Source: Giardia intestinalis (lineage: Eukaryota). From it: a DNA stretch of 64,000 bases. The position numbers and the translations under genes were made by a program. This document shows, in pieces, positions 14,692 to 37,873 of the stretch. Numbering within the stretch: position 1 is the first letter of the stretch; each line of letters starts with the position of its first letter. The stretch lies in the NCBI GenBank assembly GCA_000002435.2, contig CM018793.1. One strand, 5' to 3'. Below the pieces are notes generated by a model that did not search any database, was not told the origin of the DNA, and saw only the letters and a list, made by a program, of their open reading frames with translations.

Positions 14692-14698
14692 AGTAAAC
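14692..14698 (+). promoter_or_regulatory. VSP poly(A) signal AGTAAAC.
   Basis: The conserved VSP 3' flank cttaggtAGTAAACgcatctcctattacatctgct. The same element occurs at 29954-29960 (plus strand), 23448-23454 (minus strand) and 38710-38716 (minus strand). Confidence 0.7.
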
Positions 14699-18500: not shown

Positions 18501-19526
18501 TTTCTGTTTATATTAAACGCCTTCGCTGTACTGGGGTCTCAGTGAGAAGACGAGCACAGATCCAGGCATGCAAGCCTTTAGAGATGCGTACTCCACGCAA
18601 TTCCGGTGTGCTCGCCTGACGAGTCCTACTGCTCTAGCCGGCATACCGTTAGATCCTTCTGTACAGATTGAGCGAGCAGATATTAGCATACGGGTCACGT
18701 TAAGTACCTATGTTCAAGGCAGCTGCTGTTGAACGGGCACACCCAGAGCCACTGTCACGTAAGATGCCAGCAAGATTCGCGGCCGCAGATCACACTGTAA
18801 TCTGGCGACTGATTTGGTCATGTCGCTTCTTTATCGGCTGGAAACTCGACTGGAAGCGACAGAGAGCACGTCGGGAGAACTCGATGGGAGAGGACTGGCA
18901 GGGCTTCCTGCGCCACGGGGGGAGCCACCGCAGGAGGACGCGCAGGCACGCACGCCAGGCCACAGTAGACACGCGGACGCCCCTGTAGACTGGGCCGGCA
19001 GCAGGCGTCCGCAGAATCCGCGCCAGAGCCAGCTGCTCAAAAAACTGGGCAGCCTCTGGTCGTGTGCAGGCCTTGCAGAGCGCTGCGGCTCCCGACACTC
19101 GGCGACCCCTCTCAGAGCGGAAGACCCCGCGGGCCGCAGGCAGCAGCTCGTCGTCGGCGATGTCCCGAACGAGGGGGACGGCCCCAGCCTGCCTGCCTCC
19201 GCAGAGCTCTGGGTGTCTGCAGACAAACCGGGGCTGCGCAGGGCGCGGCTCTCCCTGGCGGCCGAGGGCGGGGATCCCCGGCAATACCAAAAAACTCCGA
19301 TCAATACATCAACCCCGGCGCCGCCGTGTGCAAAGCAGTCTGTTCTGTGTGGCGACCTAAGCCAACTCGTACTGCGGCGATGGCCCGGATGAGGGCGCCC
19401 TGCTCGCCCGACGGACCGGGGCAGGCAGGCAACAAACACCCGCTAAAACTTTTGCGCAAGGCCTGTACATATTTAATTTCACATTATTCGTTGGTCTGTT
19501 TTTAGTTTTATCGCCGCTTCTATTGG

Positions 19527-20117
19527 ATGGGCTCTGGGGCAATGACGGCGGAGACGCGCGCCTCCGTTCTGCTCGAGCTCGCGAAGCAGGTCGTCGCTGC
19601 CCGGCGGCTGGGGGAGACGGCCGAGAGCCTCGCGCGGCGGCCGCTGCTCCTCCACCGGCACGTGCTCCGGACGGCCATCGACTGGAAGAAGATCGCCCGC
19701 GCCCTGTCCGAGGACCGGAGCAGGATCTACCACTGGTACCGCGAGACGCACTCGCGGAGCATCCTCAACGTGAAGATGACCGGCGAGGACCGCAGGGCCA
19801 TCAAGGCGATGATCATCGCCGGGGTCAGGGACCGGAGCATCCTGGGCCCGGACTTCTACCGCAGGGTCCACGAGCGCTTCGGGGCGAAGTATCCGCGCCA
19901 GGAGCTGCGGATGACGTACAACAACGCGCTCCGCACCCAGGACGTCCGCGCCGCCCTGGAGGAGCATGGGGTTCTTCCTGGGCCCGGCACCCTCTCGCTC
20001 CAGACGGGCCAGGATCTTCTCGGGCCGCCCACTTCCTTCGCATGCGTGCCATGCTTCCCCCCTGCGGGCTACGGGGGCGTGCCTGGGTGCGCTGATACAT
20101 ACCCCAGTAAGGGCTGA
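19527..20117 (+). CDS. Low-confidence hypothetical ORF (196 aa) with a possible Myb/SANT-like or HTH segment (TAIDWKKIARALSEDRSRIYHWYRETH). An identical mirror copy lies at 33291..33881 on the minus strand.
   Basis: Starts with ATG. Its amino-acid composition is balanced compared with the Arg/Pro/Gly-rich ORFs around it in the GC-rich block. It shows the W..IA..L....R....W.R.. spacing of helix-turn-helix domains. There is no strong initiator and the region is GC-rich, so chance ORFs are expected. Confidence 0.25.
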   Translation: MGSGAMTAETRASVLLELAKQVVAARRLGETAESLARRPLLLHRHVLRTAIDWKKIARALSEDRSRIYHWYRETHSRSILNVKMTGEDRRAIKAMIIAGVRDRSILGPDFYRRVHERFGAKYPRQELRMTYNNALRTQDVRAALEEHGVLPGPGTLSLQTGQDLLGPPTSFACVPCFPPAGYGGVPGCADTYPSKG

Positions 20118-23100
20118 AGACTGGAGAGCCCGGCTTGCCTGGTGGTCGTCGAGGGGCATCGACGAGTGGTCGGTAGAAACGGCTAATAGTTGAAGTCCTG
20201 GTCAGTGGCGAGACAGTCATTCCTAGAGCGTGTAGCATGCTCGGCCACTTCATAACGCAGGGCCCACCAGACGCAAGCTGTGACGGCCTGGATGTCGCGC
20301 AATCCGTGGCCTGTGCATCGTTGCAGGGGCCATACACAGCAGGTGGAGGCAGGGTTTCCTGTGTGCTCAGACGACTCGACCATCGCAGTTCTGGGTCGAC
20401 GATCCACTAGATATTCCTGTCTAACAACGGGCGGCCGAACGCCCTCTGGGCTGTGAGCTAACACTAACGTGCAGTTGGTCGGCCACCAGATCCATCTTGG
20501 TTAGCCCTCTGCCTACATGCGCCAACACGCCGAGGAGCTACAGGGCAGTCGTTTGCTGTCTTGACAGGTATACTATTGCCTCTATATCTGCACCCTGGAT
20601 GCGGCCACCATAGCACAGTTGCATCTCTGATCATCCTGTGCACACCTTCTGGCACGAGCAGGTGCGCCGGAAGGGATGCACTGCCCACCGCCGAGAAATG
20701 GATGAACTCCCTTACCCAGGAGCCGGCTGACCACTAGCCGTGCCCAGCAAACCCCAATAAGCAGGCCTGCTGAGCCAACCCATCCAAGAAGCTGTGTATC
20801 CGGAAGAGCTTCGCGTCGAATGGCTCCTTGATTAAAGAAGCTGGCATCCAGCGCGACATGACGACTGCTCGCCTGGTGCTGTGCTACCTGCTGGGCGGAA
20901 ACACAGACGCCCTAAGCTCCGTGTGAGCTTGTGCTCAAAGCGTCCTTCACCGGCACGGGATTCCAGGAACTAGGCGTAGATAGGAAGAGCATTCCCCGCT
21001 AGTGCCACGAAGTACCGGTACGCTACCTGGATACACCGATGGCAGCGAAGAGTACGAGAAGGTCCCAGGGCCTCATCGAGCGGGTCTGCTCCTAGCAGGC
21101 CCAAGTGGACGCTCTCTCCAGCAGTGTACAAGAAGCCTGGGAGGGAGTGCTCAGGCTGGAGCTGAGGCGTTGCTGGTACAGGCTGTCCTTACTGAGTGCA
21201 TCCCTCAGCGTCCAATAAGTGGAAAAGTGACCGGAGCTAGGTGTGCCTGCTTCTTCTCTGCCGCCTGCATGTTGTTGCATCTCTAGCTCTTCCTCATTTG
21301 TCGAGCGACTGCTCCTTCTGGCCTCTTGCTGGTCCTCGTTCGTCGTGTAGTCTCTTTTGGAGCTGCTCCCTGGAGGTCGGGCTGACCAGCAACATGGAGG
21401 AGCCTCATTCTTAGCTTCACACTCCACAACTGGCCCAGCGACATGTTGACCATTTTACAAGCAGTTCTGGGTCGCCCAGTCTGGGGCCGGCTGCTGTGCA
21501 TTCTCTGCTTGACTGCCAGGGTCCGCGTCTGGCCCAGACACTAGATGGACAGGAGGCACGGACAAACGCCATTTGCTTGTTGCTTTCATGATCCACGAAG
21601 CTGCTGTCTTTATGTGAGTCTCGACCCAGGTCGGTCTCCGTTGTAGGTGCAACAGTCTTGCGCATGCAATCTGGAGGATCTACGTTAGCGGGTCGAGCCG
21701 AGCAATCCTTGTTAGCGCCTGCCATCCGACGTCTCTGTTGTTGAACTGGCCTGTAGAAGTCCGCTATAGGCCCTCAGGCTCTTTGTCTGTGAGGTTCTGT
21801 GAGGTCCTCTATACCGGTCAGGCCTGTCCGCGTACTCTGTTGATGGGCGAGCTGGTGCATGCAGTCACAGCCCCTGCGCCACCTTCCATTCGGCACTCGG
21901 CGTGTCCACCTGCTTCCGGCCTGCCCTCGCAGAGCACGCTAAGCGCCCACCTATAGCGCATGTCGGTGGAGACTCCTCGGGAGCAATTTGCGGGGGTCTC
22001 GATGAGGTGGCCGACGCCCAGTGAACGACCCCAAGCCACCCTTTAGTGTCTGCGCTGTCGCTCCACGAGAGTGCGTAGTGGGATGCGGCCCGGAGTCCTC
22101 ATGTGCGGGGGCTGACAAGGACTGACAGCCACAGTCAACGGCAGAAAGTTCGGCACCCCGTGTTCCCACGACGTCTCCGATCGCAGTACTGGCGGGGCCT
22201 GACGGCGCTTCTCTTCTTAATTCGGAACGAGTTAAGGAGTTTCCGCCGTAGGATGGCCGAACTGGCGGCCGGCAGGGCTGTGCGATGTGTTAGAGATTGT
22301 TAGAGATTCATACTGTATATTGTGCAGTGGCTAACGTGTATGGGTGTCCCACCGAAGACCCGGCGAAGGATGGCACCGGAGGTGAGACAGGATGACTCCT
22401 GGTGGAGGGGACCACGGTGCTGGCTTGCCTGCAGATGCCGTGGCCAAAATCTCAGCCCGTCCAGGAGTTTAACGGAGGTCATGCGGCCGGACACCGAGGC
22501 CTACCGGAGAGCCGCATCGCCCCTGCACGAGCCAGCAAGCACTGCCTTCGACCCGACCACAGTTGAGAGCGCCCATGTCCGTGGATGCCGTCGGTCAGGT
22601 CCCTGAAGACCACCCTGCTCACAGCCCCAGGGATCCCTCTGCAGACTCTGATTTCTATATCCCTGGGGTAGATGTTTGCGGATAGCGGCACAGGGCTCAG
22701 CAAAACCGCCAGAAGATCCACAGCACACTGTCATTAACTATAAACGTCTTGCGGTATTCATTCCACAATTGAGCCGGTCGTACTGACACAGGAACTGGAG
22801 TCAGGCACTTCTAGGGTGCAACTACAGGACTGTGGAGGAGCTTGCCTTCACACAAAGAAGATCACGTGGACCAGATGTGCCCGGACTGAGAAGCGCCCGC
22901 TTTACCGAGTAATGGTCGCTAATCTATGCACACAGATCATGTTTGGCGGCAAGCTCCCCTGTAGCTCATGCATCACTGTGAATCACTGCCTAGAGGCTTG
23001 TGTTGGAGATGCCGCAAGACACTAATGGCTGACAGGTGTGACTAGCCGTTCTTCCAGTGGTCGTCTCTGGATGCACCGAGTACCTAAGGCGATAGATCAG

Positions 23101-23461
23101 CGCTGCAGGCCTTGACTGTCACGGGCCTTGTGCATAGCTGATCAAATGCCCAACACACTCTGCCCGAGGGTGCCCAAACCCCACGGTGCTGTAGTCGGGC
23201 TGCTAAGGTGCGAGAGGTGGGGCACAGAGGCGCCTATCAGAGCCAAGGATCTATGTGTCACCTGCCTCTGGGTGGAGCAACTACGCCATAGTAGGGGGTG
23301 TTTGTTGCCATACAGAAGTGGGTACGATGAGATACGAAGGCACAGTCCTGCCGCAGAATCCGACGGGTGCTCGGAAACGGGTAACCCGGTAACCTCGTAG
23401 AATAGCAACGTCGAAGCTATAGAGTAAGCAGATGTAATAGGAGATGCGTTTACTACCTAAG

Positions 23462-25426
23462 TCACGCCTTGCCCCGGCACACGAACCACCAGCAGAGGAA
23501 GCCGACGAGGCCCCCCACAACAACGATGACAGCGACAGAGATCCCCGCTATGGCGCCTGTGCTGAGGCCGCTCTTGTTCGTGCTCCCGCCGTTGTTGTCA
23601 CCAGTACTATCACCCATCTCGAGGCACATGAACGCACTGGTGGATGACACCGTGCACTGTCTGCACCCAGCGAGCCCCTCAGAGCACTTCTTGCACGGTC
23701 CACTATCGCTACTCTCCTTATAATATCCACGAGCACATACTTTGCATGTGGCAGCCGCGGTTTCGCAGGTGTAGCAGCTTTCATGACATTTCGTGCAAGC
23801 TTTGACGTTACTGAATGCTATGTATCCATCCATACATTCTGTACATTCATTTGCAGTATTACACGTCTTACAGCCTTCAGGGCATATTACAAGGTTGTTT
23901 TCATTATTTAAGTTAAACCCTGGCATAGGTCTATCACAAGTCCCACCAGTTGTCGCCACTGTTGCACATACACTGTGCGCAGGGTACTTCTCATCTTCGT
24001 AGCACCCTCCGTTCATCCGAAGGAGCCCATTAGCACACGAATTGCAGACACCGGTTCCTTGAGAGGTGCATGTCGCAGCCCGCCCACTTGGTTTCGGTGC
24101 ACAGACACCGTTCTGGGGATACTCATTGTCCTGGCTACATGCAGAGCAGTACCTTGTGCCTTTAACAATTAGATCACATGCTTTACAGTTCCCAGTGGCT
24201 TTATCTGTATTGACAACACATTCAGGAGCGCATTTACCCTTCTGCCCATTTGCATAGTCAAGGATGGTTCCAGGTTTGCACTCAGTACAATCATTAGCAG
24301 TGTTTCCCTTACAATTCTTGCAACTACCGTCACACTTCTGGCATATCCCAGCATCGTCAGCATAGAATCCATCTTCGCAGAAACCGCATTTGCCGTTCGG
24401 ATCACACACAACGCAATTCTTGACCTCGCACTTCTTACAGATCCCTTTGCCGCCCTCTGTGCTGCTGTAGTAGCCTAGAATATATTCGCAATATTTTATG
24501 CACATCCCTGTCGGAGTGAGATAGTTCTTGTCCTTGCACTCCTCACATGTCTTCTTGTCTGCAGAACATTTCTGGCAGTTCTCGACGGGGCAGTCAGAGG
24601 GCGGAGGTTCTGGGGCATCGACACATGTAGATCCCTCGTCATTGGGTGTCTTTCCGCCGTTACACGTAGTGCACTTGATAGCAGACTCTCCAGCTAATCC
24701 GCGAGCTTCCTTGAGAGTACATGTCTTACAGTCAATTATGCCACCGGCGTCGGTGTCTCCACACGGGACGCATTTTTTGATACCCTTAGCTGTGACAGGG
24801 AAGTGGTCTGTCTTACACTGCGTCTTTTCAACGCAACTAGAAGGCGTTACAGCTAATAAATAGTATTCGCCCTCACACGTAGTGCATGTGGCAGAGCCGG
24901 GGCCTTCAGGAGGAGTACACACTTTGCAGTTCGGAACACCTCTGAAACCATCAATCGTATCTGCCTCATTGCAGGCAATGCAAGATTGGTGGGTGTTATC
25001 GCTAGCACCCATATTTTTGAAGAACCCGTTAGCGTCATTGCATGTTTCACAGAGTCCTGCACTACTACTCGCACTTTTGCAAACGGTTTGTCCAGGAGGT
25101 GCTGCTTGTACATAGCATCCACCTTTGTGGAGGAAGTATCCAGCCTTAGTACACTTTCCACATGTGGTTGAATGCTCATCGAGAGCTCCATCAACTTTTT
25201 CACATCCGGCAGTTGTGATAAGCCCATCACTTTTATCCTTACATTCCCCATTAATGGGCACCTCTCCAGGTTTAGCACAGTCAGTGCAAACTCTATCTCC
25301 ACCTATGCTAATGCATTTACCCTGTTTACACTGTCCTGTTTGCGGGTCACTGCTAGCCTCTGTGCATGTTTTTGCTGCCCGTGCTACTTGCAGAATCAAA
25401 ATTCCAAAGAGGATTTTCTCGAACAT
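23462..25426 (-). CDS. vsp: VSP-B copy 1 (655 aa from MFEKILFGILILQVARAAKTC...). It has a CRGKA tail and is transcribed away from the palindrome centre.
   Basis: 100% identical at the protein level to 27982..29946. I chose the MFEKILF start by homology with VSP-A; the track ORF extends upstream to a GTG at 25642. The poly(A) signal is at 23448-23454 on the minus strand. Confidence 0.9.
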   Translation of the reverse strand: MFEKILFGILILQVARAAKTCTEASSDPQTGQCKQGKCISIGGDRVCTDCAKPGEVPINGECKDKSDGLITTAGCEKVDGALDEHSTTCGKCTKAGYFLHKGGCYVQAAPPGQTVCKSASSSAGLCETCNDANGFFKNMGASDNTHQSCIACNEADTIDGFRGVPNCKVCTPPEGPGSATCTTCEGEYYLLAVTPSSCVEKTQCKTDHFPVTAKGIKKCVPCGDTDAGGIIDCKTCTLKEARGLAGESAIKCTTCNGGKTPNDEGSTCVDAPEPPPSDCPVENCQKCSADKKTCEECKDKNYLTPTGMCIKYCEYILGYYSSTEGGKGICKKCEVKNCVVCDPNGKCGFCEDGFYADDAGICQKCDGSCKNCKGNTANDCTECKPGTILDYANGQKGKCAPECVVNTDKATGNCKACDLIVKGTRYCSACSQDNEYPQNGVCAPKPSGRAATCTSQGTGVCNSCANGLLRMNGGCYEDEKYPAHSVCATVATTGGTCDRPMPGFNLNNENNLVICPEGCKTCNTANECTECMDGYIAFSNVKACTKCHESCYTCETAAATCKVCARGYYKESSDSGPCKKCSEGLAGCRQCTVSSTSAFMCLEMGDSTGDNNGGSTNKSGLSTGAIAGISVAVIVVVGGLVGFLCWWFVCRGKA

Positions 25427-27981
25427 TGCCAGCAGTCCGTAGAGCATCCAGTAGAGAGAGCCTGCACACCTAATATCAGTGTGCTGTGTCGCTAGACATC
25501 GCTTATGGGGGCGGTCCAGAGGTCTTACATGAGCTGCCCCAACTTTCTGATCAGTTTGGAGACGATGGCTGGTTCTAGACAGCAAACAGGGACTCCTCTT
25601 TATTAGCATATCTAAAACCTGGCACCTTCCCCGGCCGCTCACCCTGGGATTTAGCTCACTTGCCCACTTGCGTCGTCCACCAATGGCGCCTCTCCTTGGT
25701 CTTCCTTCGTGGTGGGTGAAGCTCCGGTCGCTGTCTTTTTTAGATGCTCCCGTCTGTCAGGGGCTGCCATCGGGCTCTCCACTGGCCGCCCCTCGGTGTC
25801 CGTCTGGCTGTGGCCCGGGCAGCGCTCTACAGTCGCGGTCACTTGGGTCTCAGCGGGCCAGCTGGTGGGGAGGCTGGGGCATGGGGCGGTGAGGCTGGAG
25901 GGTGGCGGTGTCGTCTGTGCCCCTGGTCCGGTGGGCCATTGGGGTGGTAGGTGATCCCCTCTCTGTTTGCCAAGGTGGTTGTGTCTGATCTCCAACCGTC
26001 GTTGTACTCCCGAGACAAAGGCACCGACGATCGTGTCGTGTCCCCCTGACTGAGCGCCTCCTCTCAGCCCCTGCATGTCTCGGGCAGTACTGCTTCTCTG
26101 TTTGACTAGTACGTGAGGGTCAAAGCAGGCCATCCCAGGCCCTCCTGATGCTCTGTGCGGGTCTGCTGAGCCCCCTGGCATGCCCTGTCTGGTGCCTCGA
26201 CGGTAGTTCACCTCGGGCCAGCAGGGGCATGGATGACCCTGTGGATGGGATGGGTTCTCTCAGGCCTCTAGTGTGATGACCCAGAAGACTGACACGGTGG
26301 GGCACCAGTGACTGCACTGTCCCCGTGGTCAGCTGTGCTGCCCCTGGTGGGTCCTCGTTGTAGAGCGCTGTGTGTTGTTCATAGGCAGAGGTGAGCCTCC
26401 TTGGTCTCAAGATGCTCTACCATGCAGAGAGGAGCACGCTGAGGGTCACCCATACCTCACACCTGCTGTGTCCTCGGGGAGTTCCCGGTGTGATCCACTA
26501 GGACCTTGACCCCTCTCGTGGCTCTGATGACTCGCCTCAGGGAGAGTCGGGGCACCCTATACTGAGGGGTGTGCACCCTCCTGCATGAGCTGGGACCCAC
26601 TGCACTGCCCCCAAGGAGGTCTGCTATGAGAGGCAGTGAATGATTGACAGCCCCTCAGAGTGCGGTGGAGGGTGCTCGTGGTCGTCTCTTGTGATCGGGC
26701 ATCACTCTGATGGTCGGCTCCTGTGCCTGCGTGGTGCTCAGAGGTCACCTGTCTGCCTCGTAGCCTGCTGGACAGCCGGGCCTCTTGTGGCGTCCGAAGG
26801 TCTCCTCACTCCTCTGGTCGCTGTCCCCTCGGGTCATAGGTGGAGGCCAGCGAGTCTTCGGAGTCTGGTGCCTGCCTGGGTGTCATGGAGAGGCTGGCAG
26901 CTATCAAGGCTCTGCCACTGCTCGCCTGCCTGGAGTGTGCCTCCCTTGGGCCTGCTCTGCTGTGCTGCGTGAGTCCTCTGGCTCCTATCAGACCTCTGAT
27001 TGTGAGAGTGACTCCACCTGGCCTTCTGATGCCCCTGTGGATGAGCATAGCAATGTGTCTGGTTGAGGATCTCTGGTGCCCGTGGCTGTCACTGCCTCTC
27101 GGGTGCTTGGGTAGTTGCCTGGGGCTCTCGTATGGGGGCACAGTCTGTTCGTGTGTGGATGGTCCTCCTGGACTCATGTCCATCTGTGCACACTGTCACT
27201 CAGCCTCGAGAGCAGACCAGTGCAGTCACCAGGGTTGCTGTCAGAGGGAGTCGTCTGCCACTACCATCGTTCGAGCAGACTCTACAGCTCAGGCTGGCTG
27301 CTGTGCACCCTCATGGCAGGGCTGCTTGACTCCCCTTGGTCATCCTCTCTGTCCCGGTGCACACGGCTCCTGAGGGTTGTCTGGGTGGAGGCACTCACAG
27401 ACCACGAGCACACAGAGGGATGAGTCACAGATGGACAGCCCCCAGTCACCACAACTGCAATCACCCCAGTCCACCGAGAGGTCAGGGGCACAGACGACAC
27501 CGCCACCCTCCAGCCTCACCGCCCCATGCCCCAGCCTCCCCACCAGCTGGCCCGCTGAGACCCAAGTGACCGCGACTGTAGAGCGCTGCCCGGGCCACAG
27601 CCAGACGGACACCGAGGGGCGGCCAGCGGAGAGCCCGATGGCAGCCCCTGACAGACGGGAGCATCTAAAAAAGACAGCGACCCGAGCTTCACCCACCACG
27701 AAGGAAGACCAAGGAGAGGCGCCATTGGTGGACGACGCAAGTGGGCAAGTGAGCTAAATCCCAGGGTGAGCGGCCGGGGAAGGTGCCAGGTTTTAGATAT
27801 GCTAATAAAGAGGAGTCCCTGTTTGCTGTCTAGAACCAGCCATCGTCTCCAAACTGATCAGAAAGTTGGGGCAGCTCATGTAAGACCTCTGGACCGCCCC
27901 CATAAGCGATGTCTAGCGACACAGCACACTGATATTAGGTGTGCAGGCTCTCTCTACTGGATGCTCTACGGACTGCTGGCA

Positions 27982-29946
27982 ATGTTCGAGAAAATCCTCT
28001 TTGGAATTTTGATTCTGCAAGTAGCACGGGCAGCAAAAACATGCACAGAGGCTAGCAGTGACCCGCAAACAGGACAGTGTAAACAGGGTAAATGCATTAG
28101 CATAGGTGGAGATAGAGTTTGCACTGACTGTGCTAAACCTGGAGAGGTGCCCATTAATGGGGAATGTAAGGATAAAAGTGATGGGCTTATCACAACTGCC
28201 GGATGTGAAAAAGTTGATGGAGCTCTCGATGAGCATTCAACCACATGTGGAAAGTGTACTAAGGCTGGATACTTCCTCCACAAAGGTGGATGCTATGTAC
28301 AAGCAGCACCTCCTGGACAAACCGTTTGCAAAAGTGCGAGTAGTAGTGCAGGACTCTGTGAAACATGCAATGACGCTAACGGGTTCTTCAAAAATATGGG
28401 TGCTAGCGATAACACCCACCAATCTTGCATTGCCTGCAATGAGGCAGATACGATTGATGGTTTCAGAGGTGTTCCGAACTGCAAAGTGTGTACTCCTCCT
28501 GAAGGCCCCGGCTCTGCCACATGCACTACGTGTGAGGGCGAATACTATTTATTAGCTGTAACGCCTTCTAGTTGCGTTGAAAAGACGCAGTGTAAGACAG
28601 ACCACTTCCCTGTCACAGCTAAGGGTATCAAAAAATGCGTCCCGTGTGGAGACACCGACGCCGGTGGCATAATTGACTGTAAGACATGTACTCTCAAGGA
28701 AGCTCGCGGATTAGCTGGAGAGTCTGCTATCAAGTGCACTACGTGTAACGGCGGAAAGACACCCAATGACGAGGGATCTACATGTGTCGATGCCCCAGAA
28801 CCTCCGCCCTCTGACTGCCCCGTCGAGAACTGCCAGAAATGTTCTGCAGACAAGAAGACATGTGAGGAGTGCAAGGACAAGAACTATCTCACTCCGACAG
28901 GGATGTGCATAAAATATTGCGAATATATTCTAGGCTACTACAGCAGCACAGAGGGCGGCAAAGGGATCTGTAAGAAGTGCGAGGTCAAGAATTGCGTTGT
29001 GTGTGATCCGAACGGCAAATGCGGTTTCTGCGAAGATGGATTCTATGCTGACGATGCTGGGATATGCCAGAAGTGTGACGGTAGTTGCAAGAATTGTAAG
29101 GGAAACACTGCTAATGATTGTACTGAGTGCAAACCTGGAACCATCCTTGACTATGCAAATGGGCAGAAGGGTAAATGCGCTCCTGAATGTGTTGTCAATA
29201 CAGATAAAGCCACTGGGAACTGTAAAGCATGTGATCTAATTGTTAAAGGCACAAGGTACTGCTCTGCATGTAGCCAGGACAATGAGTATCCCCAGAACGG
29301 TGTCTGTGCACCGAAACCAAGTGGGCGGGCTGCGACATGCACCTCTCAAGGAACCGGTGTCTGCAATTCGTGTGCTAATGGGCTCCTTCGGATGAACGGA
29401 GGGTGCTACGAAGATGAGAAGTACCCTGCGCACAGTGTATGTGCAACAGTGGCGACAACTGGTGGGACTTGTGATAGACCTATGCCAGGGTTTAACTTAA
29501 ATAATGAAAACAACCTTGTAATATGCCCTGAAGGCTGTAAGACGTGTAATACTGCAAATGAATGTACAGAATGTATGGATGGATACATAGCATTCAGTAA
29601 CGTCAAAGCTTGCACGAAATGTCATGAAAGCTGCTACACCTGCGAAACCGCGGCTGCCACATGCAAAGTATGTGCTCGTGGATATTATAAGGAGAGTAGC
29701 GATAGTGGACCGTGCAAGAAGTGCTCTGAGGGGCTCGCTGGGTGCAGACAGTGCACGGTGTCATCCACCAGTGCGTTCATGTGCCTCGAGATGGGTGATA
29801 GTACTGGTGACAACAACGGCGGGAGCACGAACAAGAGCGGCCTCAGCACAGGCGCCATAGCGGGGATCTCTGTCGCTGTCATCGTTGTTGTGGGGGGCCT
29901 CGTCGGCTTCCTCTGCTGGTGGTTCGTGTGCCGGGGCAAGGCGTGA
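27982..29946 (+). CDS. vsp: VSP-B copy 2 (655 aa). It is identical to copy 1 and sits head-to-head with it across the spacer.
   Basis: Mirror of 23462..25426. ATG at 27982 (gcaATGttcgagaaaatc). AGTAAAC at 29954-29960. Confidence 0.9.
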   Translation: MFEKILFGILILQVARAAKTCTEASSDPQTGQCKQGKCISIGGDRVCTDCAKPGEVPINGECKDKSDGLITTAGCEKVDGALDEHSTTCGKCTKAGYFLHKGGCYVQAAPPGQTVCKSASSSAGLCETCNDANGFFKNMGASDNTHQSCIACNEADTIDGFRGVPNCKVCTPPEGPGSATCTTCEGEYYLLAVTPSSCVEKTQCKTDHFPVTAKGIKKCVPCGDTDAGGIIDCKTCTLKEARGLAGESAIKCTTCNGGKTPNDEGSTCVDAPEPPPSDCPVENCQKCSADKKTCEECKDKNYLTPTGMCIKYCEYILGYYSSTEGGKGICKKCEVKNCVVCDPNGKCGFCEDGFYADDAGICQKCDGSCKNCKGNTANDCTECKPGTILDYANGQKGKCAPECVVNTDKATGNCKACDLIVKGTRYCSACSQDNEYPQNGVCAPKPSGRAATCTSQGTGVCNSCANGLLRMNGGCYEDEKYPAHSVCATVATTGGTCDRPMPGFNLNNENNLVICPEGCKTCNTANECTECMDGYIAFSNVKACTKCHESCYTCETAAATCKVCARGYYKESSDSGPCKKCSEGLAGCRQCTVSSTSAFMCLEMGDSTGDNNGGSTNKSGLSTGAIAGISVAVIVVVGGLVGFLCWWFVCRGKA

Positions 29947-32900
29947 CTTAGGTAGTAAACGCATCTCCTATTACATCTGCTTACTCTATAGCTTCGACGT
30001 TGCTATTCTACGAGGTTACCGGGTTACCCGTTTCCGAGCACCCGTCGGATTCTGCGGCAGGACTGTGCCTTCGTATCTCATCGTACCCACTTCTGTATGG
30101 CAACAAACACCCCCTACTATGGCGTAGTTGCTCCACCCAGAGGCAGGTGACACATAGATCCTTGGCTCTGATAGGCGCCTCTGTGCCCCACCTCTCGCAC
30201 CTTAGCAGCCCGACTACAGCACCGTGGGGTTTGGGCACCCTCGGGCAGAGTGTGTTGGGCATTTGATCAGCTATGCACAAGGCCCGTGACAGTCAAGGCC
30301 TGCAGCGCTGATCTATCGCCTTAGGTACTCGGTGCATCCAGAGACGACCACTGGAAGAACGGCTAGTCACACCTGTCAGCCATTAGTGTCTTGCGGCATC
30401 TCCAACACAAGCCTCTAGGCAGTGATTCACAGTGATGCATGAGCTACAGGGGAGCTTGCCGCCAAACATGATCTGTGTGCATAGATTAGCGACCATTACT
30501 CGGTAAAGCGGGCGCTTCTCAGTCCGGGCACATCTGGTCCACGTGATCTTCTTTGTGTGAAGGCAAGCTCCTCCACAGTCCTGTAGTTGCACCCTAGAAG
30601 TGCCTGACTCCAGTTCCTGTGTCAGTACGACCGGCTCAATTGTGGAATGAATACCGCAAGACGTTTATAGTTAATGACAGTGTGCTGTGGATCTTCTGGC
30701 GGTTTTGCTGAGCCCTGTGCCGCTATCCGCAAACATCTACCCCAGGGATATAGAAATCAGAGTCTGCAGAGGGATCCCTGGGGCTGTGAGCAGGGTGGTC
30801 TTCAGGGACCTGACCGACGGCATCCACGGACATGGGCGCTCTCAACTGTGGTCGGGTCGAAGGCAGTGCTTGCTGGCTCGTGCAGGGGCGATGCGGCTCT
30901 CCGGTAGGCCTCGGTGTCCGGCCGCATGACCTCCGTTAAACTCCTGGACGGGCTGAGATTTTGGCCACGGCATCTGCAGGCAAGCCAGCACCGTGGTCCC
31001 CTCCACCAGGAGTCATCCTGTCTCACCTCCGGTGCCATCCTTCGCCGGGTCTTCGGTGGGACACCCATACACGTTAGCCACTGCACAATATACAGTATGA
31101 ATCTCTAACAATCTCTAACACATCGCACAGCCCTGCCGGCCGCCAGTTCGGCCATCCTACGGCGGAAACTCCTTAACTCGTTCCGAATTAAGAAGAGAAG
31201 CGCCGTCAGGCCCCGCCAGTACTGCGATCGGAGACGTCGTGGGAACACGGGGTGCCGAACTTTCTGCCGTTGACTGTGGCTGTCAGTCCTTGTCAGCCCC
31301 CGCACATGAGGACTCCGGGCCGCATCCCACTACGCACTCTCGTGGAGCGACAGCGCAGACACTAAAGGGTGGCTTGGGGTCGTTCACTGGGCGTCGGCCA
31401 CCTCATCGAGACCCCCGCAAATTGCTCCCGAGGAGTCTCCACCGACATGCGCTATAGGTGGGCGCTTAGCGTGCTCTGCGAGGGCAGGCCGGAAGCAGGT
31501 GGACACGCCGAGTGCCGAATGGAAGGTGGCGCAGGGGCTGTGACTGCATGCACCAGCTCGCCCATCAACAGAGTACGCGGACAGGCCTGACCGGTATAGA
31601 GGACCTCACAGAACCTCACAGACAAAGAGCCTGAGGGCCTATAGCGGACTTCTACAGGCCAGTTCAACAACAGAGACGTCGGATGGCAGGCGCTAACAAG
31701 GATTGCTCGGCTCGACCCGCTAACGTAGATCCTCCAGATTGCATGCGCAAGACTGTTGCACCTACAACGGAGACCGACCTGGGTCGAGACTCACATAAAG
31801 ACAGCAGCTTCGTGGATCATGAAAGCAACAAGCAAATGGCGTTTGTCCGTGCCTCCTGTCCATCTAGTGTCTGGGCCAGACGCGGACCCTGGCAGTCAAG
31901 CAGAGAATGCACAGCAGCCGGCCCCAGACTGGGCGACCCAGAACTGCTTGTAAAATGGTCAACATGTCGCTGGGCCAGTTGTGGAGTGTGAAGCTAAGAA
32001 TGAGGCTCCTCCATGTTGCTGGTCAGCCCGACCTCCAGGGAGCAGCTCCAAAAGAGACTACACGACGAACGAGGACCAGCAAGAGGCCAGAAGGAGCAGT
32101 CGCTCGACAAATGAGGAAGAGCTAGAGATGCAACAACATGCAGGCGGCAGAGAAGAAGCAGGCACACCTAGCTCCGGTCACTTTTCCACTTATTGGACGC
32201 TGAGGGATGCACTCAGTAAGGACAGCCTGTACCAGCAACGCCTCAGCTCCAGCCTGAGCACTCCCTCCCAGGCTTCTTGTACACTGCTGGAGAGAGCGTC
32301 CACTTGGGCCTGCTAGGAGCAGACCCGCTCGATGAGGCCCTGGGACCTTCTCGTACTCTTCGCTGCCATCGGTGTATCCAGGTAGCGTACCGGTACTTCG
32401 TGGCACTAGCGGGGAATGCTCTTCCTATCTACGCCTAGTTCCTGGAATCCCGTGCCGGTGAAGGACGCTTTGAGCACAAGCTCACACGGAGCTTAGGGCG
32501 TCTGTGTTTCCGCCCAGCAGGTAGCACAGCACCAGGCGAGCAGTCGTCATGTCGCGCTGGATGCCAGCTTCTTTAATCAAGGAGCCATTCGACGCGAAGC
32601 TCTTCCGGATACACAGCTTCTTGGATGGGTTGGCTCAGCAGGCCTGCTTATTGGGGTTTGCTGGGCACGGCTAGTGGTCAGCCGGCTCCTGGGTAAGGGA
32701 GTTCATCCATTTCTCGGCGGTGGGCAGTGCATCCCTTCCGGCGCACCTGCTCGTGCCAGAAGGTGTGCACAGGATGATCAGAGATGCAACTGTGCTATGG
32801 TGGCCGCATCCAGGGTGCAGATATAGAGGCAATAGTATACCTGTCAAGACAGCAAACGACTGCCCTGTAGCTCCTCGGCGTGTTGGCGCATGTAGGCAGA

Positions 32901-35900
32901 GGGCTAACCAAGATGGATCTGGTGGCCGACCAACTGCACGTTAGTGTTAGCTCACAGCCCAGAGGGCGTTCGGCCGCCCGTTGTTAGACAGGAATATCTA
33001 GTGGATCGTCGACCCAGAACTGCGATGGTCGAGTCGTCTGAGCACACAGGAAACCCTGCCTCCACCTGCTGTGTATGGCCCCTGCAACGATGCACAGGCC
33101 ACGGATTGCGCGACATCCAGGCCGTCACAGCTTGCGTCTGGTGGGCCCTGCGTTATGAAGTGGCCGAGCATGCTACACGCTCTAGGAATGACTGTCTCGC
33201 CACTGACCAGGACTTCAACTATTAGCCGTTTCTACCGACCACTCGTCGATGCCCCTCGACGACCACCAGGCAAGCCGGGCTCTCCAGTCTTCAGCCCTTA
33301 CTGGGGTATGTATCAGCGCACCCAGGCACGCCCCCGTAGCCCGCAGGGGGGAAGCATGGCACGCATGCGAAGGAAGTGGGCGGCCCGAGAAGATCCTGGC
33401 CCGTCTGGAGCGAGAGGGTGCCGGGCCCAGGAAGAACCCCATGCTCCTCCAGGGCGGCGCGGACGTCCTGGGTGCGGAGCGCGTTGTTGTACGTCATCCG
33501 CAGCTCCTGGCGCGGATACTTCGCCCCGAAGCGCTCGTGGACCCTGCGGTAGAAGTCCGGGCCCAGGATGCTCCGGTCCCTGACCCCGGCGATGATCATC
33601 GCCTTGATGGCCCTGCGGTCCTCGCCGGTCATCTTCACGTTGAGGATGCTCCGCGAGTGCGTCTCGCGGTACCAGTGGTAGATCCTGCTCCGGTCCTCGG
33701 ACAGGGCGCGGGCGATCTTCTTCCAGTCGATGGCCGTCCGGAGCACGTGCCGGTGGAGGAGCAGCGGCCGCCGCGCGAGGCTCTCGGCCGTCTCCCCCAG
33801 CCGCCGGGCAGCGACGACCTGCTTCGCGAGCTCGAGCAGAACGGAGGCGCGCGTCTCCGCCGTCATTGCCCCAGAGCCCATCCAATAGAAGCGGCGATAA
33901 AACTAAAAACAGACCAACGAATAATGTGAAATTAAATATGTACAGGCCTTGCGCAAAAGTTTTAGCGGGTGTTTGTTGCCTGCCTGCCCCGGTCCGTCGG
34001 GCGAGCAGGGCGCCCTCATCCGGGCCATCGCCGCAGTACGAGTTGGCTTAGGTCGCCACACAGAACAGACTGCTTTGCACACGGCGGCGCCGGGGTTGAT
34101 GTATTGATCGGAGTTTTTTGGTATTGCCGGGGATCCCCGCCCTCGGCCGCCAGGGAGAGCCGCGCCCTGCGCAGCCCCGGTTTGTCTGCAGACACCCAGA
34201 GCTCTGCGGAGGCAGGCAGGCTGGGGCCGTCCCCCTCGTTCGGGACATCGCCGACGACGAGCTGCTGCCTGCGGCCCGCGGGGTCTTCCGCTCTGAGAGG
34301 GGTCGCCGAGTGTCGGGAGCCGCAGCGCTCTGCAAGGCCTGCACACGACCAGAGGCTGCCCAGTTTTTTGAGCAGCTGGCTCTGGCGCGGATTCTGCGGA
34401 CGCCTGCTGCCGGCCCAGTCTACAGGGGCGTCCGCGTGTCTACTGTGGCCTGGCGTGCGTGCCTGCGCGTCCTCCTGCGGTGGCTCCCCCCGTGGCGCAG
34501 GAAGCCCTGCCAGTCCTCTCCCATCGAGTTCTCCCGACGTGCTCTCTGTCGCTTCCAGTCGAGTTTCCAGCCGATAAAGAAGCGACATGACCAAATCAGT
34601 CGCCAGATTACAGTGTGATCTGCGGCCGCGAATCTTGCTGGCATCTTACGTGACAGTGGCTCTGGGTGTGCCCGTTCAACAGCAGCTGCCTTGAACATAG
34701 GTACTTAACGTGACCCGTATGCTAATATCTGCTCGCTCAATCTGTACAGAAGGATCTAACGGTATGCCGGCTAGAGCAGTAGGACTCGTCAGGCGAGCAC
34801 ACCGGAATTGCGTGGAGTACGCATCTCTAAAGGCTTGCATGCCTGGATCTGTGCTCGTCTTCTCACTGAGACCCCAGTACAGCGAAGGCGTTTAATATAA
34901 ACAGAAAGCCGTGGTGTCACTAGGGTCTATTCGGGCCACTCAGCTATATCGATCATTCCTACCGGTAAAGCCGGACTGCTTACTACTGAGCAGAAGGAAG
35001 CGGCTCCTATGACGGCCAAGCGTGGAATCGGTACGCTGTCAAGCCTCTCGATTCAGATGCAGAGTCTGCAATGTCCACGTGAGTAGCACGCCAAGTGGTT
35101 GCCGCTTGCTTGTTATAGACTATAGATCGGCACGTAGGCTCGCGGGCCGGCTGCATCTTACTCGGAAGTACAAGACGCTGCTCCTGTCTGGATCACAGAT
35201 GCGAATCGCCGGTCCCGATGCGCACGAGTGTTACAGAGTAACAAGGAGAGCACCCGTCTATGGCACACAGTCACAATTCGAGTGGCGTCCAGCCCTCCTG
35301 GAGAAAAGGCATGCCACGATCAACGGCATACTGCTTTGAACACCAGTAAGCACACCCGCTGTGTCTGCGAAGCCGAGGGCGGCCGTATCGCCGGCTGCTA
35401 CTTGTCACTCGGACGCACATGTGTGACGAGACGTGCGGGCGCCCTTCACAAAGGCCTCTTGATGCGCAACACACGGCCCAGCCGCCTCTTCTCTGAGAGA
35501 CAGATGAACTTTGCTTGCAGTGGGCTGCGTTAGCGTAGACTTCTGAACACGTCCCTCTGTTGAGGATTCAGCGGCTACGCACTGGGGGCAGACACGCGTG
35601 TTCTGTGGCCAACACGGGACTTGGCTGAGCAAAGGAGGTAACGAGTCGGCGCTTCTGGCCCGATGCTCTGCGTGCCTGCGCCAGAGACCAGGCTGCCAAT
35701 GTGCCGGTTAAGGAGAAGATGCGATGATCCACCATCGAGGACTGCAGTACCCGCGGAGACGGGCAGGAGCGACTTTTTATGACCACGAGCCTGAGCCCTT
35801 TAAGGTCTGTGCCCGGCTCTTCGCATTACACAGCCCCTCCTCGTGTGTACCCTCAGAGAGCGCGAACATCCTCTTCGACAAGCACTTCTGTGGACACCAC

Positions 35901-37873
35901 AGCAGGAATGCATAGTTCTGCGTTGATCATGCCTTAGCCCTATTGGGGTTGGTGACAAAACTACGACTTCCCTGTCACGAGGCATTACGCTCTGTACAGA
36001 AGAATGCCAGCAAGTCATGCAATGCCTGTGGATCCGTCCTTCGACCTTCTCCTGACAGACATGTGTCTTTTGGCATGCAGCCCTGCATTGCACGACGGTT
36101 CGCCCTCCAAGTGATGGTCTAGAGGACTCAACGCAGTGGCTCCCAAGATATGTGTCCTGAACAGAAGACTATACGATCATATACCTCTAACCACATGAGG
36201 CCACAGCCCACTCTGCTTCTCTATGATGCGCTTAGAACTGTCTCTACGGCTCTCTGTGCTCCATACTATGCGTCTGCTTGTCTTCCACACGCCTATCCCG
36301 GAGTCTGAATTAGGCAAGGCGCACTATATTTGGGGTCACTGCCAACTGCGTTGGCTATTCAGCAAGATATGACTAAAGGCAGCGTCCAGCACGACCGAAC
36401 ATGCTTGAAAGTTACACAGGAGAATGAGTACAGTGCGGGAATGTCCCTCGGTCTACTGGTAAAATGCCGTCGGCTGCTGATACAGGCTCTTGTCTTTGTG
36501 CGGTGACATGCAATCACGTGGTACGCATAGCATCGCTATCTGCATGACGCGAGGCCAGCCAAGTTCTGCCCATCCTACCTCTTATCCTTGCGCGAAGATT
36601 CTGAAAACATAGGATGTCTGGACATGGTGTAGGGCTCTATCGGTAGACCTTCTTTTCTGCACTTCAAGACATGCAGAGGCGGGCGCAGTGTTCCCTAGAC
36701 AGAGGCCTCGGGTATGCACGCTGTTGAGCGACGACTGGAGTTCCTCTGGGGTATCTTACAAAGAGCGGCGCGCTGGCAGGGGCGTCGGTTCGGTGTTCTG
36801 AACAGTGATTAGGGAGCTCCGGCAAGTGAGCGCCTCTCGACTGGCTTGTGTGCCTGCAGCTACACGTGCATGGGCAGCGAGCGGTGCACAAGCCCACGAT
36901 GCTGCGGTTCTACGAATGCCTACTCCTGGTGAGTGCCGTCTGGGGACAAGGGGTGTGTACCGGTACAAACTATCCGGTGTCTCTCTGCACACCAGCCTCA
37001 TAACAATGCTCTACTGGGACTGACTCCGGAGCCAAGTAGGAGAAGAGGCCCTTCTGGGTCTTAATGGCCACGGGCCCCACTACACACCTGGCGGTGCCAC
37101 CCAGAGACCGGATAGCTTTAGAATATTATATAGAAGTTAGCAGACATGTGACTTCGTCTGGTTAGTACGCGCTCTGTGCCGATGCGACTAACGTACACTC
37201 ATCGAAGCATTACCTCGTTTACTCAGAAGTCTTACCGGATACCCAAGGGCTCTCGCTTCCTTCTAGCAGGAGATGAAGCGGCTGCAGAACAGACAGCAGG
37301 GCACCTAGGCCGTGTTGACAAACATGAAGCACAAAATAGCGAGAAGTCCCGTCATGGTAGCATTAGAAACTGCATTAGAGAGGGCGACAAGTATAAGCAC
37401 GATTATACTGGAAAGCACGGCACGCATAACAAGACGTGGATCTTGGCACACAAGAGCGTGGACTTCAAGACCGAACTAGTGAGGAGCTTCTGCAGAGTCC
37501 CGGGCCCCAACAGGTCCTCGAGTGACACAGTGGCTGCGATCACTGCCGACCCTTTTGACCAGCTGTGGGTCGGTCTCTCCGTCTGATGGTTCGTGATATG
37601 ATTTAGAGGGTCCAACTGGAAGATTCCGGACCCTCGAGGTTCAAACGACCCAGGAGGCAAACGACCTCCATAAATCGCGCCAGCCTAGTGTCCACCCCAA
37701 CCCCACCACTATCTATGCAGGTACTAGCAGTTAGCAACGTATAGCAGCTACATGAAGCTGGCGCTCAGATAGTAAACTGAAACCCAAGGATCTCCCCCCG
37801 GGAGAGGTGGCCCGCGTGCCAGGGGTTGCCTCGCACCTTGGCACAGTTGATACGAGCCCACCAGAGAAGTAAA

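What the first reader, a model, noticed from the sequence alone, without database searches (positions are those of the whole stretch)
23462..29946. Two 100%-identical VSP genes placed head-to-head across a 2.5-kb divergent region
VSP-B copy 1 (23462..25426, minus strand) and copy 2 (27982..29946, plus strand) encode identical 655-aa proteins and are transcribed outward from the spacer. Their 5' flanks are identical for about 500 bp (25427-25925 and 27483-27981), and then comes a unique 1.56-kb core. Only one VSP is expressed per trophozoite, and silencing is thought to be post-transcriptional (RNAi or miRNA-like). Two identical divergent copies could give convergent or overlapping antisense transcription across the spacer, and would double the gene dosage and the small-RNA targets for this one antigen.
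Basis: partly seen in the sequence, partly recalled or inferred. Interest (0 to 1): 0.5.

Follow-up and report, generated by a model that had tools for sequence, protein, structure and literature searches.

The report
Known Giardia VSP pair inside palindrome
The two identical surface-antigen genes are real, but they are the already published vsp26.1/26.2 pair of Giardia WB chromosome 5, and they are only the centre of a 24-kb mirror-image duplication that also copies a 5S rRNA gene and three other genes.

Summary
The two 1965-nt VSP coding sequences are 100% identical and head-to-head. They share 499 nt of upstream flank (2 SNPs) and are separated by a unique 1557-nt core. The inverted repeat has arms of 11,292 nt (14634-25925 and 27483-38774) with 3 mismatches, and spans 24,141 nt in total. 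Each arm carries VSP-B, a complete 5S rRNA gene, two hypothetical genes (GL50803_00113864 and GL50803_0060223) and a GST-like gene. The outer junctions lie in an 86-nt block that is identical in VSP-A, VSP-B and VSP-C. That points to homology-driven recombination at conserved VSP 3' ends. The window is Giardia intestinalis WB chromosome 5. The pair is vsp26.1/26.2 (GL50803_137723/137722). It was published as a head-to-head identical pair by Adam 2010, by Xu 2020 (Table 2: 661 aa, 2513 bp) and by a 2022 preprint. The WB annotation already marks the flanking duplicates with 'd' tags. Published strand-specific RNA-seq shows the pair silent, with antisense reads, like most VSPs. Verdict: real, ordinary for this genome, already known. 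Low interest.

The parts
14634..25925 (.). Left arm of the inverted repeat (11,292 nt).
   Evidence: reverse-complementary to 27483-38774 with 3 mismatches (15207, 25725, 25781). The symmetry sum of paired coordinates is 53408.
27483..38774 (.). Right arm of the inverted repeat (11,292 nt).
   Evidence: 99.989% over the 8754-nt arm interior.
25926..27482 (.). Unique spacer of 1557 nt, 60.7% GC, with no recognisable gene or domain remnant.
   Evidence: random-level complementarity. (only a self-hit in the window). (no Pfam hit on 7 ORFs). (no VSP-like coding similarity). Xu 2020 Table 2 and preprint table S4 list no gene between the pair.
23462..25426 (-). VSP-B copy 1 (one member of vsp26.1/26.2, GL50803_00137722 or GL50803_00137723), 654 aa.
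   Evidence: KAE8304974/975; XP_001709467/469. Adam 2010 supplement.
27982..29946 (+). VSP-B copy 2, identical CDS. The initiator CAATGTT is at 27980-27986 and the extended poly(A) signal ACTTAGGTAGTAAAC follows the stop.
   Evidence: The preprint states that the second ATG is the true start for this pair.
25427..25925 (-). Shared 5' flank of copy 1 (499 nt; SNPs at 25725 and 25781). It is the mirror of 27483-27981.
22145..22264 (-). 5S rRNA gene, left arm.
   Evidence: Rfam RF00001, 88.3 bits (gathering score 38), full length 1-120.
31144..31263 (+). 5S rRNA gene, right arm. It lies 1197 nt downstream of the VSP-B stop, in the same orientation.
   Evidence: Xu 2020 Table 1 counts 10 5S genes in the WB genome.
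19527..20117 (+). Hypothetical protein GL50803_00113864 (196 aa), left arm. Its mirror copy, GL50803_00d113864, is at 33291-33881 (-).
   Evidence: KAE8304973.1/KAE8304976.1. (48 relatives in the representative library, 21 at E<=1e-10). (no Pfam domain).
18820..19392 (+). Hypothetical protein GL50803_0060223 (190 aa), left arm. Its mirror copy, GL50803_00d60223, is at 34016-34588 (-).
   Evidence: KAE8304972.1/KAE8304977.1. Coordinates.
14914..15534 (-). GST-like protein (206 aa), left arm, with the derived residue K at the one coding difference between arms.
   Evidence: KAE8304971/978.
37874..38494 (+). GST-like protein (206 aa), right arm, with the ancestral residue E.
   Evidence: E is conserved in three orthologues.
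14634..14719 (+). Outer junction block, left: 86 nt (last 51 nt of the VSP CDS plus 35 nt of 3' UTR with the poly(A) signal), identical in VSP-A, VSP-B and VSP-C. The mirror block is 38689-38774.
   Evidence: A=B from -137 to +35 relative to the stop. A=C from -50 onward. B=C only from -50 to +35.
12519..14684 (+). VSP-A (721 aa; KAE8304970/XP_001705450). It has a unique body and its 3' tail forms the left outer edge of the palindrome.
38724..41090 (-). VSP-C, by inference vsp25 = vspA6-S2 (GL50803_37093). It has 3.7 perfect copies of a 201-nt repeat at 40063-40803, and its 3' tail forms the right outer edge of the palindrome. The upstream limit of the ORF is a TTG; the true ATG start was not fixed.
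   Evidence: Adam 2010 supplement lists vsp25 (A6-S2, TR201) next to vsp26.1 on chromosome 5.

Best explanation
This is a real, evolutionarily young or continually homogenised inverted segmental duplication (a palindrome) in a GC-rich, gene-poor VSP island of Giardia intestinalis WB chromosome 5. A multi-gene unit of about 11.3 kb (GST-like gene, two hypothetical genes, a 5S rRNA gene, VSP-B and 499 nt of its upstream region) is present twice in mirror orientation around a unique 1.56-kb spacer. The most likely origin (inferred) is as follows. A broken or stalled DNA end lying in the conserved 3' end of one flanking VSP invaded the same conserved 86-nt block of the other flanking VSP, which lies in inverted orientation. 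It then copied inward through the whole unit, as in break-induced replication or template switching, and rejoined non-homologously about 0.5 kb upstream of VSP-B. The arms have stayed 99.97% identical either because the event is very recent or because arm-to-arm gene conversion keeps erasing differences. That would be the same homogenising process that keeps the four genome copies of Giardia at 0.03% heterozygosity. The consequences are modest. The copy number of one silent-by-default antigen gene, of one 5S rRNA gene and of three small genes is doubled. Both VSP-B copies have identical proximal cis-regulatory DNA, so they are expected to behave as one antigen in antigenic variation. Shown here: the structure, gene content, junction positions, identity and published status. 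Inferred: the formation mechanism, the homogenisation and the lack of a special regulatory role.
For: Structure: 11,292-nt arms with 3 mismatches around a 1557-nt non-palindromic spacer. Both outer junctions fall in an 86-nt block identical in VSP-A, VSP-B and VSP-C, while the VSP bodies outside are unrelated; this is the expected footprint of recombination started in pre-existing homology. The inner junction is abrupt and has no flanking homology. Arm divergence is 0.027% and WB allelic heterozygosity is 0.03%. The one coding difference is a derived K in the left arm against an ancestral E, which is a post-duplication mutation and not an assembly copy-paste. Reality of the structure: both VSP copies and the same spacer length appear in the 2007 Sanger assembly (ORF distance 2190 with the 715-aa ORFs, which equals 2555-366) and in the 2020 PacBio assembly with an optical map (2513 with the 661-aa ORFs, which equals 2555-42). 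The annotation carries mirror-ordered duplicates KAE8304971-978 with 'd' tags. Xu 2020 reports multi-gene duplications of up to 20 kb and 19 duplicated VSP pairs. Lineage specificity: in P15 and one other isolate, the VSP-A and VSP-B relatives and the GST-like gene sit in unrelated contexts, and similarity is confined to the gene cassettes. Expression: published data show the pair silent in the sense direction with antisense reads, like most VSPs.
Against: No read-level data were available here, so a partial assembly or polishing artefact cannot be formally excluded. For example, the arm length could be inflated, or the three arm differences could really be allelic SNPs. The arms (11.3 kb) are close to the PacBio read N50 (12.7 kb), although 10% of reads exceed 20 kb at 200x coverage. 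The break-induced replication or template-switch origin is inferred only from junction positions; a two-step history (duplication followed by tail gene conversion) would leave the same footprint. Recent origin cannot be separated from ongoing gene conversion without other sub-assemblage AI/AII genomes. The preprint's general statement that duplicated pairs are 'always surrounded by retrotransposon relics' could not be reproduced here at the Pfam domain level.
Confidence: 0.8

Rival explanations
1. Hairpin-RNA silencing locus. A transcript running through one VSP-B copy in antisense, across the spacer and into the other copy in sense would fold into a perfect hairpin with a stem of up to about 2.5 kb. 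Giardia Dicer would cut it into small RNAs that silence VSP-B and, through the conserved 3' tail, perhaps other VSPs.
For: The arms are perfectly complementary, so any RNA that spans them must fold. On the minus strand there is no AGTRAAY poly(A) motif between copy 2 and copy 1's own signal at 23454, so minus-strand antisense RNA from copy 2 is not obviously stopped before it reaches copy 1. Antisense reads over the pair are reported (10-54 antisense TPM). The shared 86-nt tail is identical in three VSPs.
Against: No spanning transcript and no small-RNA cluster has been shown. I found no paper in the searchable library linking inverted VSP pairs to hairpin RNA. Antisense RNA is equally common on unpaired VSPs. 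On the plus strand a poly(A) motif lies in the spacer at 26635. A 6-7-nt motif count in 2.5 kb is very weak evidence. Most VSPs are silenced without being in pairs, and a paired VSP (VSP1267) can be the expressed one, so pairing does not enforce silencing.
Confidence: 0.06
2. Assembly artefact. The second arm, or most of its length, was created by the assembler or by chimeric or palindromic long reads, and the genome really holds a single copy or only the short gene-sized pair.
For: Arms of 11.3 kb approach the read N50 of 12.7 kb. [quoted passage not shown] Duplicated VSPs were earlier 'questioned as assembly artifacts'. In Adam 2010 the 3' divergence point for vsp26 is blank.
Against: Two assemblies made with different technology both contain the two copies with the same spacer. 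The arms join different unique sequences (the VSP-A body and the VSP-C body) and enclose a unique asymmetric spacer, unlike a missed-adapter palindrome. Three arm-specific differences include a derived non-synonymous change. The assembly was checked against an optical map, and no misassemblies were detected in read alignments.
Confidence: 0.05
3. Invertible-segment switch. Recombination between the long inverted arms flips the 1.56-kb spacer, as in flip-flop inversion in chloroplast genomes, the yeast 2-micron plasmid or bacterial invertible promoters, and this changes which VSP-B copy is driven by an asymmetric element in the spacer.
For: Long perfect inverted repeats are good substrates for intramolecular recombination, and the spacer is asymmetric.
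Against: Both sides of the spacer carry the same gene with the same 499-nt proximal upstream region, so flipping changes no product. No recombinase gene or promoter-like element was identified in the spacer. Flip-flop may well occur, but it would be phenotypically silent.
Confidence: 0.03

Closest known systems
Identical inverted VSP gene pairs of Giardia WB (Adam et al. 2010, BMC Genomics 11:424; Xu et al. 2020, Sci Data 7:38, Table 2; Rodriguez-Walker et al. 2022 preprint, table S4). This locus is vsp26.1/26.2 = GL50803_137723/137722.
   Same: It is the same object: chromosome 5, head-to-head, identical ORFs. The spacing is 2190, 2513 or 2555 bp depending on which ATG is used (715-aa, 661-aa or 654-aa ORF). 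No gene lies between the copies, and the corrected start is at the second ATG, which carries the initiator motif.
   Different: The papers describe pairs as gene-sized units whose flanks diverge 139-729 bp from the ORF. Adam 2010 left the 3' divergence point of vsp26 blank. Here the 3' identity runs 8.7 kb, to the tails of two other VSPs, and includes a 5S rRNA gene and three protein genes. Four of the seven head-to-head pairs enclose a reverse-transcriptase remnant; this one shows none.
Multi-gene segmental duplications of the WB genome (Xu et al. 2020: 6.9% of the genome duplicated, blocks of up to about 20 kb; 'd' locus tags).
   Same: It is a multi-gene block with gene-family members at the edges, and the duplicates are tagged d113864 and d60223 in the annotation.
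   Different: In the papers I read I found no description of this particular block as a palindrome bounded by VSP tails and containing 5S rRNA genes.
Large near-perfect palindromes maintained by arm-to-arm gene conversion, such as human Y-chromosome palindromes P1-P8 (from my own knowledge: Rozen et al. 2003, arms about 99.97% identical with unique spacers).
   Same: The architecture is the same (long arms, a unique spacer, multi-copy genes inside). The arm identity is the same (99.973%). The setting also lacks regular meiotic recombination.
   Different: The scale is much smaller (11 kb against tens of kb to Mb). Ongoing conversion is not demonstrated here. A very recent duplication explains the identity equally well.
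Inverted-repeat hairpin-RNA / endo-siRNA loci (for example in Drosophila, plants and Trypanosoma brucei; from my own knowledge).
   Same: The DNA geometry would give a perfect long hairpin if it were transcribed through.
   Different: There is no evidence of a spanning transcript or of a small-RNA cluster, and unpaired VSPs are silenced just as well.

Membership tests
Giardia variant-specific surface protein (VSP, PF03302) | Match to the Pfam VSP domain above the gathering score | tested here: met
   400.7 bits against a cut-off of 31.4, E = 8.4e-120.
Giardia variant-specific surface protein (VSP, PF03302) | Conserved C-terminal transmembrane segment ending in CRGKA | tested here: met
   ...AIAGISVAVIVVVGGLVGFLCWWFVCRGKA*.
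Giardia variant-specific surface protein (VSP, PF03302) | Cysteine-rich ectodomain with many CXXC motifs | tested here: met
   27 CXXC motifs, 11.9% Cys. The same numbers appear in the preprint's table.
Giardia variant-specific surface protein (VSP, PF03302) | Initiator/Kozak-like motif YAATGTT at the start codon and the extended poly(A) signal ACTYAGRTAGTRAAY after the stop | tested here: met
   (CAATGTT at 27980-27986). (ACTTAGGTAGTAAAC directly after the stop).
Giardia variant-specific surface protein (VSP, PF03302) | N-terminal signal peptide | not tested
   The N-terminus is hydrophobic (MFEKILFGILILQVARA). The preprint reports a predicted signal peptide for the shorter form. No predictor was run here.
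Identical inverted VSP pair (Adam 2010 / Xu 2020) | Two identical ORFs in inverted orientation | tested here: met
   1965 of 1965 nt identical, head-to-head.
Identical inverted VSP pair (Adam 2010 / Xu 2020) | 2-4 kb of intervening DNA | tested here: met
   2555 nt between the ATGs. This equals the published 2513 and 2190 once the different start codons are allowed for.
Identical inverted VSP pair (Adam 2010 / Xu 2020) | Flanks nearly identical up to an abrupt divergence 139-729 bp from the ORF | tested here: inconclusive
   The 5' side fits (499 nt). The 3' side does not: identity continues for 8,743 nt to the tails of other VSPs. Adam 2010 gives no 3' value for vsp26.
Identical inverted VSP pair (Adam 2010 / Xu 2020) | Retrotransposon relic between head-to-head members (frequent, not universal) | tested here: not met
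   no Pfam domain on 7 spacer ORFs. Xu Table 2 and preprint table S4 also list none for this pair. This is not a defining feature, so it does not exclude membership.
Gene-conversion-maintained palindrome (Y-chromosome type) | Long arms with more than 99.9% identity around a unique spacer | tested here: met
   11,292-nt arms, 99.973% identity, 1557-nt spacer.
Gene-conversion-maintained palindrome (Y-chromosome type) | Arms more alike within a lineage than orthologous arms are between lineages (evidence of ongoing conversion) | not testable with these tools
   No other sub-assemblage A genome could be retrieved. The P15 loci share only the gene cassettes.
Hairpin-RNA / endo-siRNA locus | A transcript spanning both arms, and Dicer-sized small RNAs mapping to the arms | not testable with these tools
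   Only a motif-level hint and published antisense TPM over the CDS are available.
Invertible promoter / phase-variation switch | Different outputs on the two sides of the invertible segment, and a site-specific recombinase | tested here: not met
   The same gene and the same 499-nt upstream region lie on both sides. No recombinase-like domain was found in the spacer or arms.

The most novel reading that the evidence does not exclude
The 24-kb palindrome may be more than a passive duplication. A minus-strand transcript starting in or beyond VSP-B copy 2, and not terminated until copy 1's own poly(A) signal, would form a perfect hairpin RNA of about 2.5 kb. That hairpin would feed Giardia Dicer. 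Because it includes the 86-nt tail shared by VSPs, it could seed or reinforce family-wide VSP silencing. Inverted VSP pairs (19-20 in WB) would then be built-in triggers for small-RNA production and not merely recent duplicates.
Probability: 0.05. Interest if true: 0.6.

Novelty: already known. Interest (0 to 1): 0.15.

Why it matters
Little is at stake for the finding as written. The pair has been in the literature since 2010, and published RNA-seq has already looked at it. Three points are useful. (1) Anyone mapping reads or designing copy-specific assays should know that the indistinguishable region is 11.3 kb per arm, not 2.5 kb, and that only three positions (15207/38201, 25725/27683, 25781/27627) plus the spacer junctions tell the arms apart. 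(2) Two of the ten 5S rRNA genes of WB lie inside this palindrome. (3) The palindrome ends inside the universally conserved VSP 3' block. That gives a concrete, testable model for how VSP-associated duplications arise, by homology-primed copying between inverted VSP tails. The model could be checked across all 19-20 pairs in the published genome.

Tried and rejected
(1) Exact-protein look-ups of VSP-B (654 aa and 661 aa) and VSP-A in the encoding-contig index, to obtain independent WB or AI assemblies: not on record. The palindrome could therefore not be checked against other assemblies directly.

(2) Synteny with P15 and one other isolate, through the VSP-A orthologue, the VSP-B relative and the GST-like orthologues. 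Only the gene cassettes match and the flanks are unrelated. I could not decide which arm is ancestral, or whether the palindrome predates WB.

(3) Search for decayed VSPs or retrotransposon remnants in the arms and spacer. tblastn with 122 VSP/HCMP proteins found only the four intact VSPs. Pfam on 20 stop-free arm segments and 7 spacer ORFs found only GST_N.

(4) The 134-aa ORF beside the GST-like gene clusters with DH proteins named 'tRNA-dihydrouridine synthase 3, partial', which suggested a partial copy of the Dus3 gene at 10536-12203. BLASTP gave E = 0.08, and no DNA or tblastx similarity exists between either unique flank and the arm. Rejected; the DH name is probably an annotation artefact.

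(5) Literature search for endo-siRNA or hairpin RNA from inverted VSP pairs, and for 5S-VSP linkage: nothing relevant.

(6) The invertible-switch idea was rejected because both sides are identical.

(7) The bacterial promoter/terminator scanner was not used because it does not apply to Giardia.

(8) The preprint's label 'VSP like region' for this intergenic region could not be reproduced at the protein level. It could not be tested at the DNA level without the whole genome.

Full report
OBSERVATION. The ORF list and a direct comparison show that 23462-25426 (minus) and 27982-29946 (plus) are identical over all 1965 nt and encode a 654-aa protein plus a stop. The genes are head-to-head, with 2555 nt between the ATGs. 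The 1557-nt core (25926-27482) has only random-level self-complementarity and no other match in the window on either strand.

A repeat search over the whole window shows that the inverted repeat is far larger: arms 14512-25946 and 27462-38896. Base-by-base, the near-perfect part is 14634-25925 against 27483-38774. That is 11,292 nt per arm with only three mismatches (15207, 25725, 25781), or 99.973% identity. With the spacer it forms a 24,141-nt palindrome-like structure. The finding's interval is 27% of it.

CONTENT. Pfam identifies four VSP genes in the window. They are VSP-A (12519-14684, +), the two VSP-B copies, and VSP-C (38724-41090, -), which has 3.7 perfect copies of a 201-nt repeat. 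Each arm also holds the following.
- A complete 5S rRNA gene (22145-22264 minus and 31144-31263 plus; Rfam 88.3 bits against a gathering score of 38), 1197 nt downstream of VSP-B in the same orientation.
- Two hypothetical genes annotated in WB as GL50803_00113864/00d113864 and GL50803_0060223/00d60223.
- A conserved Giardia GST-like gene.

The rest of the arm interior is 58% GC, against 45% in the unique flanks. It has no VSP remnants and no Pfam-detectable transposon domains. The spacer likewise has no recognisable domain.

JUNCTIONS. The stop codons of VSP-A and VSP-C are mirror images (14684 + 38724 = 53408). A three-way comparison of the tails shows an 86-nt block, from -50 to +35 around the stop, that is identical in VSP-A, VSP-B and VSP-C. 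Upstream of the block, A equals B and differs from C. Downstream of it, A equals C (the arm) and differs from B. The outer edges of the palindrome therefore lie inside sequence that all VSPs already shared. The inner edges are abrupt and show no homology. I read this as the footprint of a homology-primed copying event between inverted VSP 3' ends (break-induced replication or template switching) that ended in a non-homologous join about 0.5 kb upstream of VSP-B. This is inference. A two-step history would look the same.

IDENTITY OF THE LOCUS AND PRIOR KNOWLEDGE. The protein search places VSP-B on the 4.02-Mb contig of Giardia intestinalis WB, with accessions KAE8304974.1/975.1 and XP_001709467/469.
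- Adam et al. 2010 list vsp26.1/26.2 (GL50803_137723/137722) as a head-to-head identical pair on chromosome 5, 715 aa, with an ORF distance of 2190. That distance equals 2555 minus 2 x 183 nt for their longer ORF. The neighbouring vsp25 is vspA6-S2, with a 201-nt repeat.
- Xu et al. 2020 Table 2 lists '5, 137722, 137723, <- ->, 661 aa, 2513 bp' with nothing between. That distance equals 2555 minus 2 x 21 nt. They also report 19 duplicated VSP pairs, 6.9% of the genome duplicated, and multi-gene duplications of up to about 20 kb.
- The 2022 preprint names this pair when correcting the start codon to the second ATG, which carries the initiator motif. I confirm CAATGTT at 27980-27986. The preprint lists the pair again in its table S4.
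- The mirror order of accessions KAE8304971-978 and the 'd' locus tags show that the annotators recognised the flanking duplicates.

The finding is therefore already known. In the papers I read I did not find an explicit statement of the full 11.3-kb arm length, the VSP-tail junctions or the enclosed 5S genes. Adam 2010 leaves the 3' divergence of vsp26 blank.

IS IT REAL? Two assemblies made with different technology contain both copies with the same spacer. The arms abut different unique VSP bodies. The spacer is asymmetric. The arms carry three differences, one of which is a non-synonymous change in the GST-like gene where the right arm keeps the residue (E) found in three orthologues and the left arm has a derived K. 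The PacBio assembly had 200x coverage, 10% of reads over 20 kb, and optical-map support. I put the chance of an artefact at about 5%.

AGE AND HOMOGENISATION. Arm divergence (0.027%) equals the genome-wide allelic heterozygosity reported for WB (0.03%). Either the duplication is very recent or the arms are homogenised by gene conversion, as in other large palindromes. I could not separate these two. The P15 and other-isolate loci retrieved share only the gene cassettes with WB. For VSP-A the similarity runs from 1 nt before the ATG to about 20 nt after the stop. The flanks are unrelated.

FUNCTIONAL READING. The genes diverge, and upstream read-through from one promoter region would enter the other copy in the sense direction. 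Both copies share identical proximal upstream DNA for 499 nt. Sequence-specific regulation therefore cannot distinguish them, and they should behave as one antigen with double the copy number. Published strand-specific RNA-seq of clones expressing other VSPs gives this pair 1.1-3.6 sense TPM and 10-54 antisense TPM when two-fold multimappers are counted. The same study finds that most VSPs have more antisense than sense signal. It also finds that a paired VSP (VSP1267) can be the expressed one. Pairing is therefore neither necessary for silencing nor an obstacle to expression.

THE ONE NON-TRIVIAL POSSIBILITY. An RNA that runs through one copy in antisense, across the spacer and into the other copy in sense would form a perfect long hairpin. 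On the minus strand no AGTRAAY motif lies between copy 2 and copy 1's own poly(A) signal. On the plus strand one lies in the spacer at 26635. This is weak, motif-level evidence. I found no supporting literature and give the idea about 5%.

VERDICT. This is a real structure, accurately but incompletely described, and already published three times as a VSP pair. It is best explained as a recent or homogenised inverted segmental duplication formed through the conserved VSP 3' ends. There is no evidence for a special regulatory mechanism. Interest is low.

Noticed in passing
window 22145-22264 (-) and 31144-31263 (+): Each arm has a full-length 5S rRNA gene (Rfam 88.3 bits). Xu 2020 counts only 10 5S genes in the WB genome, so two of them lie in this palindrome, 1.2 kb downstream of a VSP. 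I found no paper noting a 5S-VSP linkage.
   Followed up: partly
window 14547-14719 versus 23427-23599 / 29809-29981: The last 138 nt of the VSP-A coding sequence plus 35 nt of its 3' UTR are 100% identical to the VSP-B tail (173 nt), whereas the VSP-C tail is only 91% identical to VSP-B. This suggests local gene conversion between the tails of neighbouring VSPs, in addition to the palindrome itself.
   Followed up: partly
window 12519-14684; L001 751-2937: VSP-A has a P15 (assemblage E) counterpart with 83% nt and about 82% aa identity over the whole gene, but in a completely unrelated genomic context. Similarity starts 1 nt before the ATG and ends about 20 nt after the stop, as if the gene moved or was retained as a cassette.
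   Followed up: partly
L002 4703-6695: The closest P15 relative of VSP-B is a mosaic. Its first 940 nt are 79% identical to VSP-B, and its last 300 nt are closest to VSP-A (81%). This is consistent with recombination between VSP genes.
   Followed up: no
window 14914-15534 and 37874-38494; L003, L004: A GST-like gene is conserved in Giardia: 88% aa identity in P15 and 66-68% in other isolates, where it lies next to a run of core genes ending in TOR kinase. It is present twice in the palindrome. A third copy within the same 90%-identity cluster lies on another WB chromosome (KAE8302024.1 on the 1.54-Mb contig). The arm copies are therefore probably secondary copies of that locus.
   Followed up: partly
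window 40063-40803: VSP-C (inferred to be vspA6-S2) has 3.7 perfectly identical 201-nt repeats here, whereas Adam 2010 lists 2 repeats and 638 aa for the older assembly. This is either repeat collapse in the Sanger assembly or a real copy-number change.
   Followed up: no
window about 14500-43000: The VSP island is a sharply bounded GC-rich block (53-66% GC in 1-kb windows) between flanks of about 45% GC. Within it, 19-20 kb and its mirror at 33-34 kb reach 64-66% GC, with open reading frames in many frames at once. The annotated hypothetical genes 113864 and 60223 lie there.
   Followed up: partly
window 37182-37586 (+) and 15822-16226 (-): A 134-aa ORF next to the GST-like gene is predicted in many ENA/Logan Giardia contigs. 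In isolate DH it is named 'tRNA-dihydrouridine synthase 3, partial', yet it has no detectable similarity to the real Dus3 gene at 10536-12203. This is probably a propagated misannotation.
   Followed up: yes
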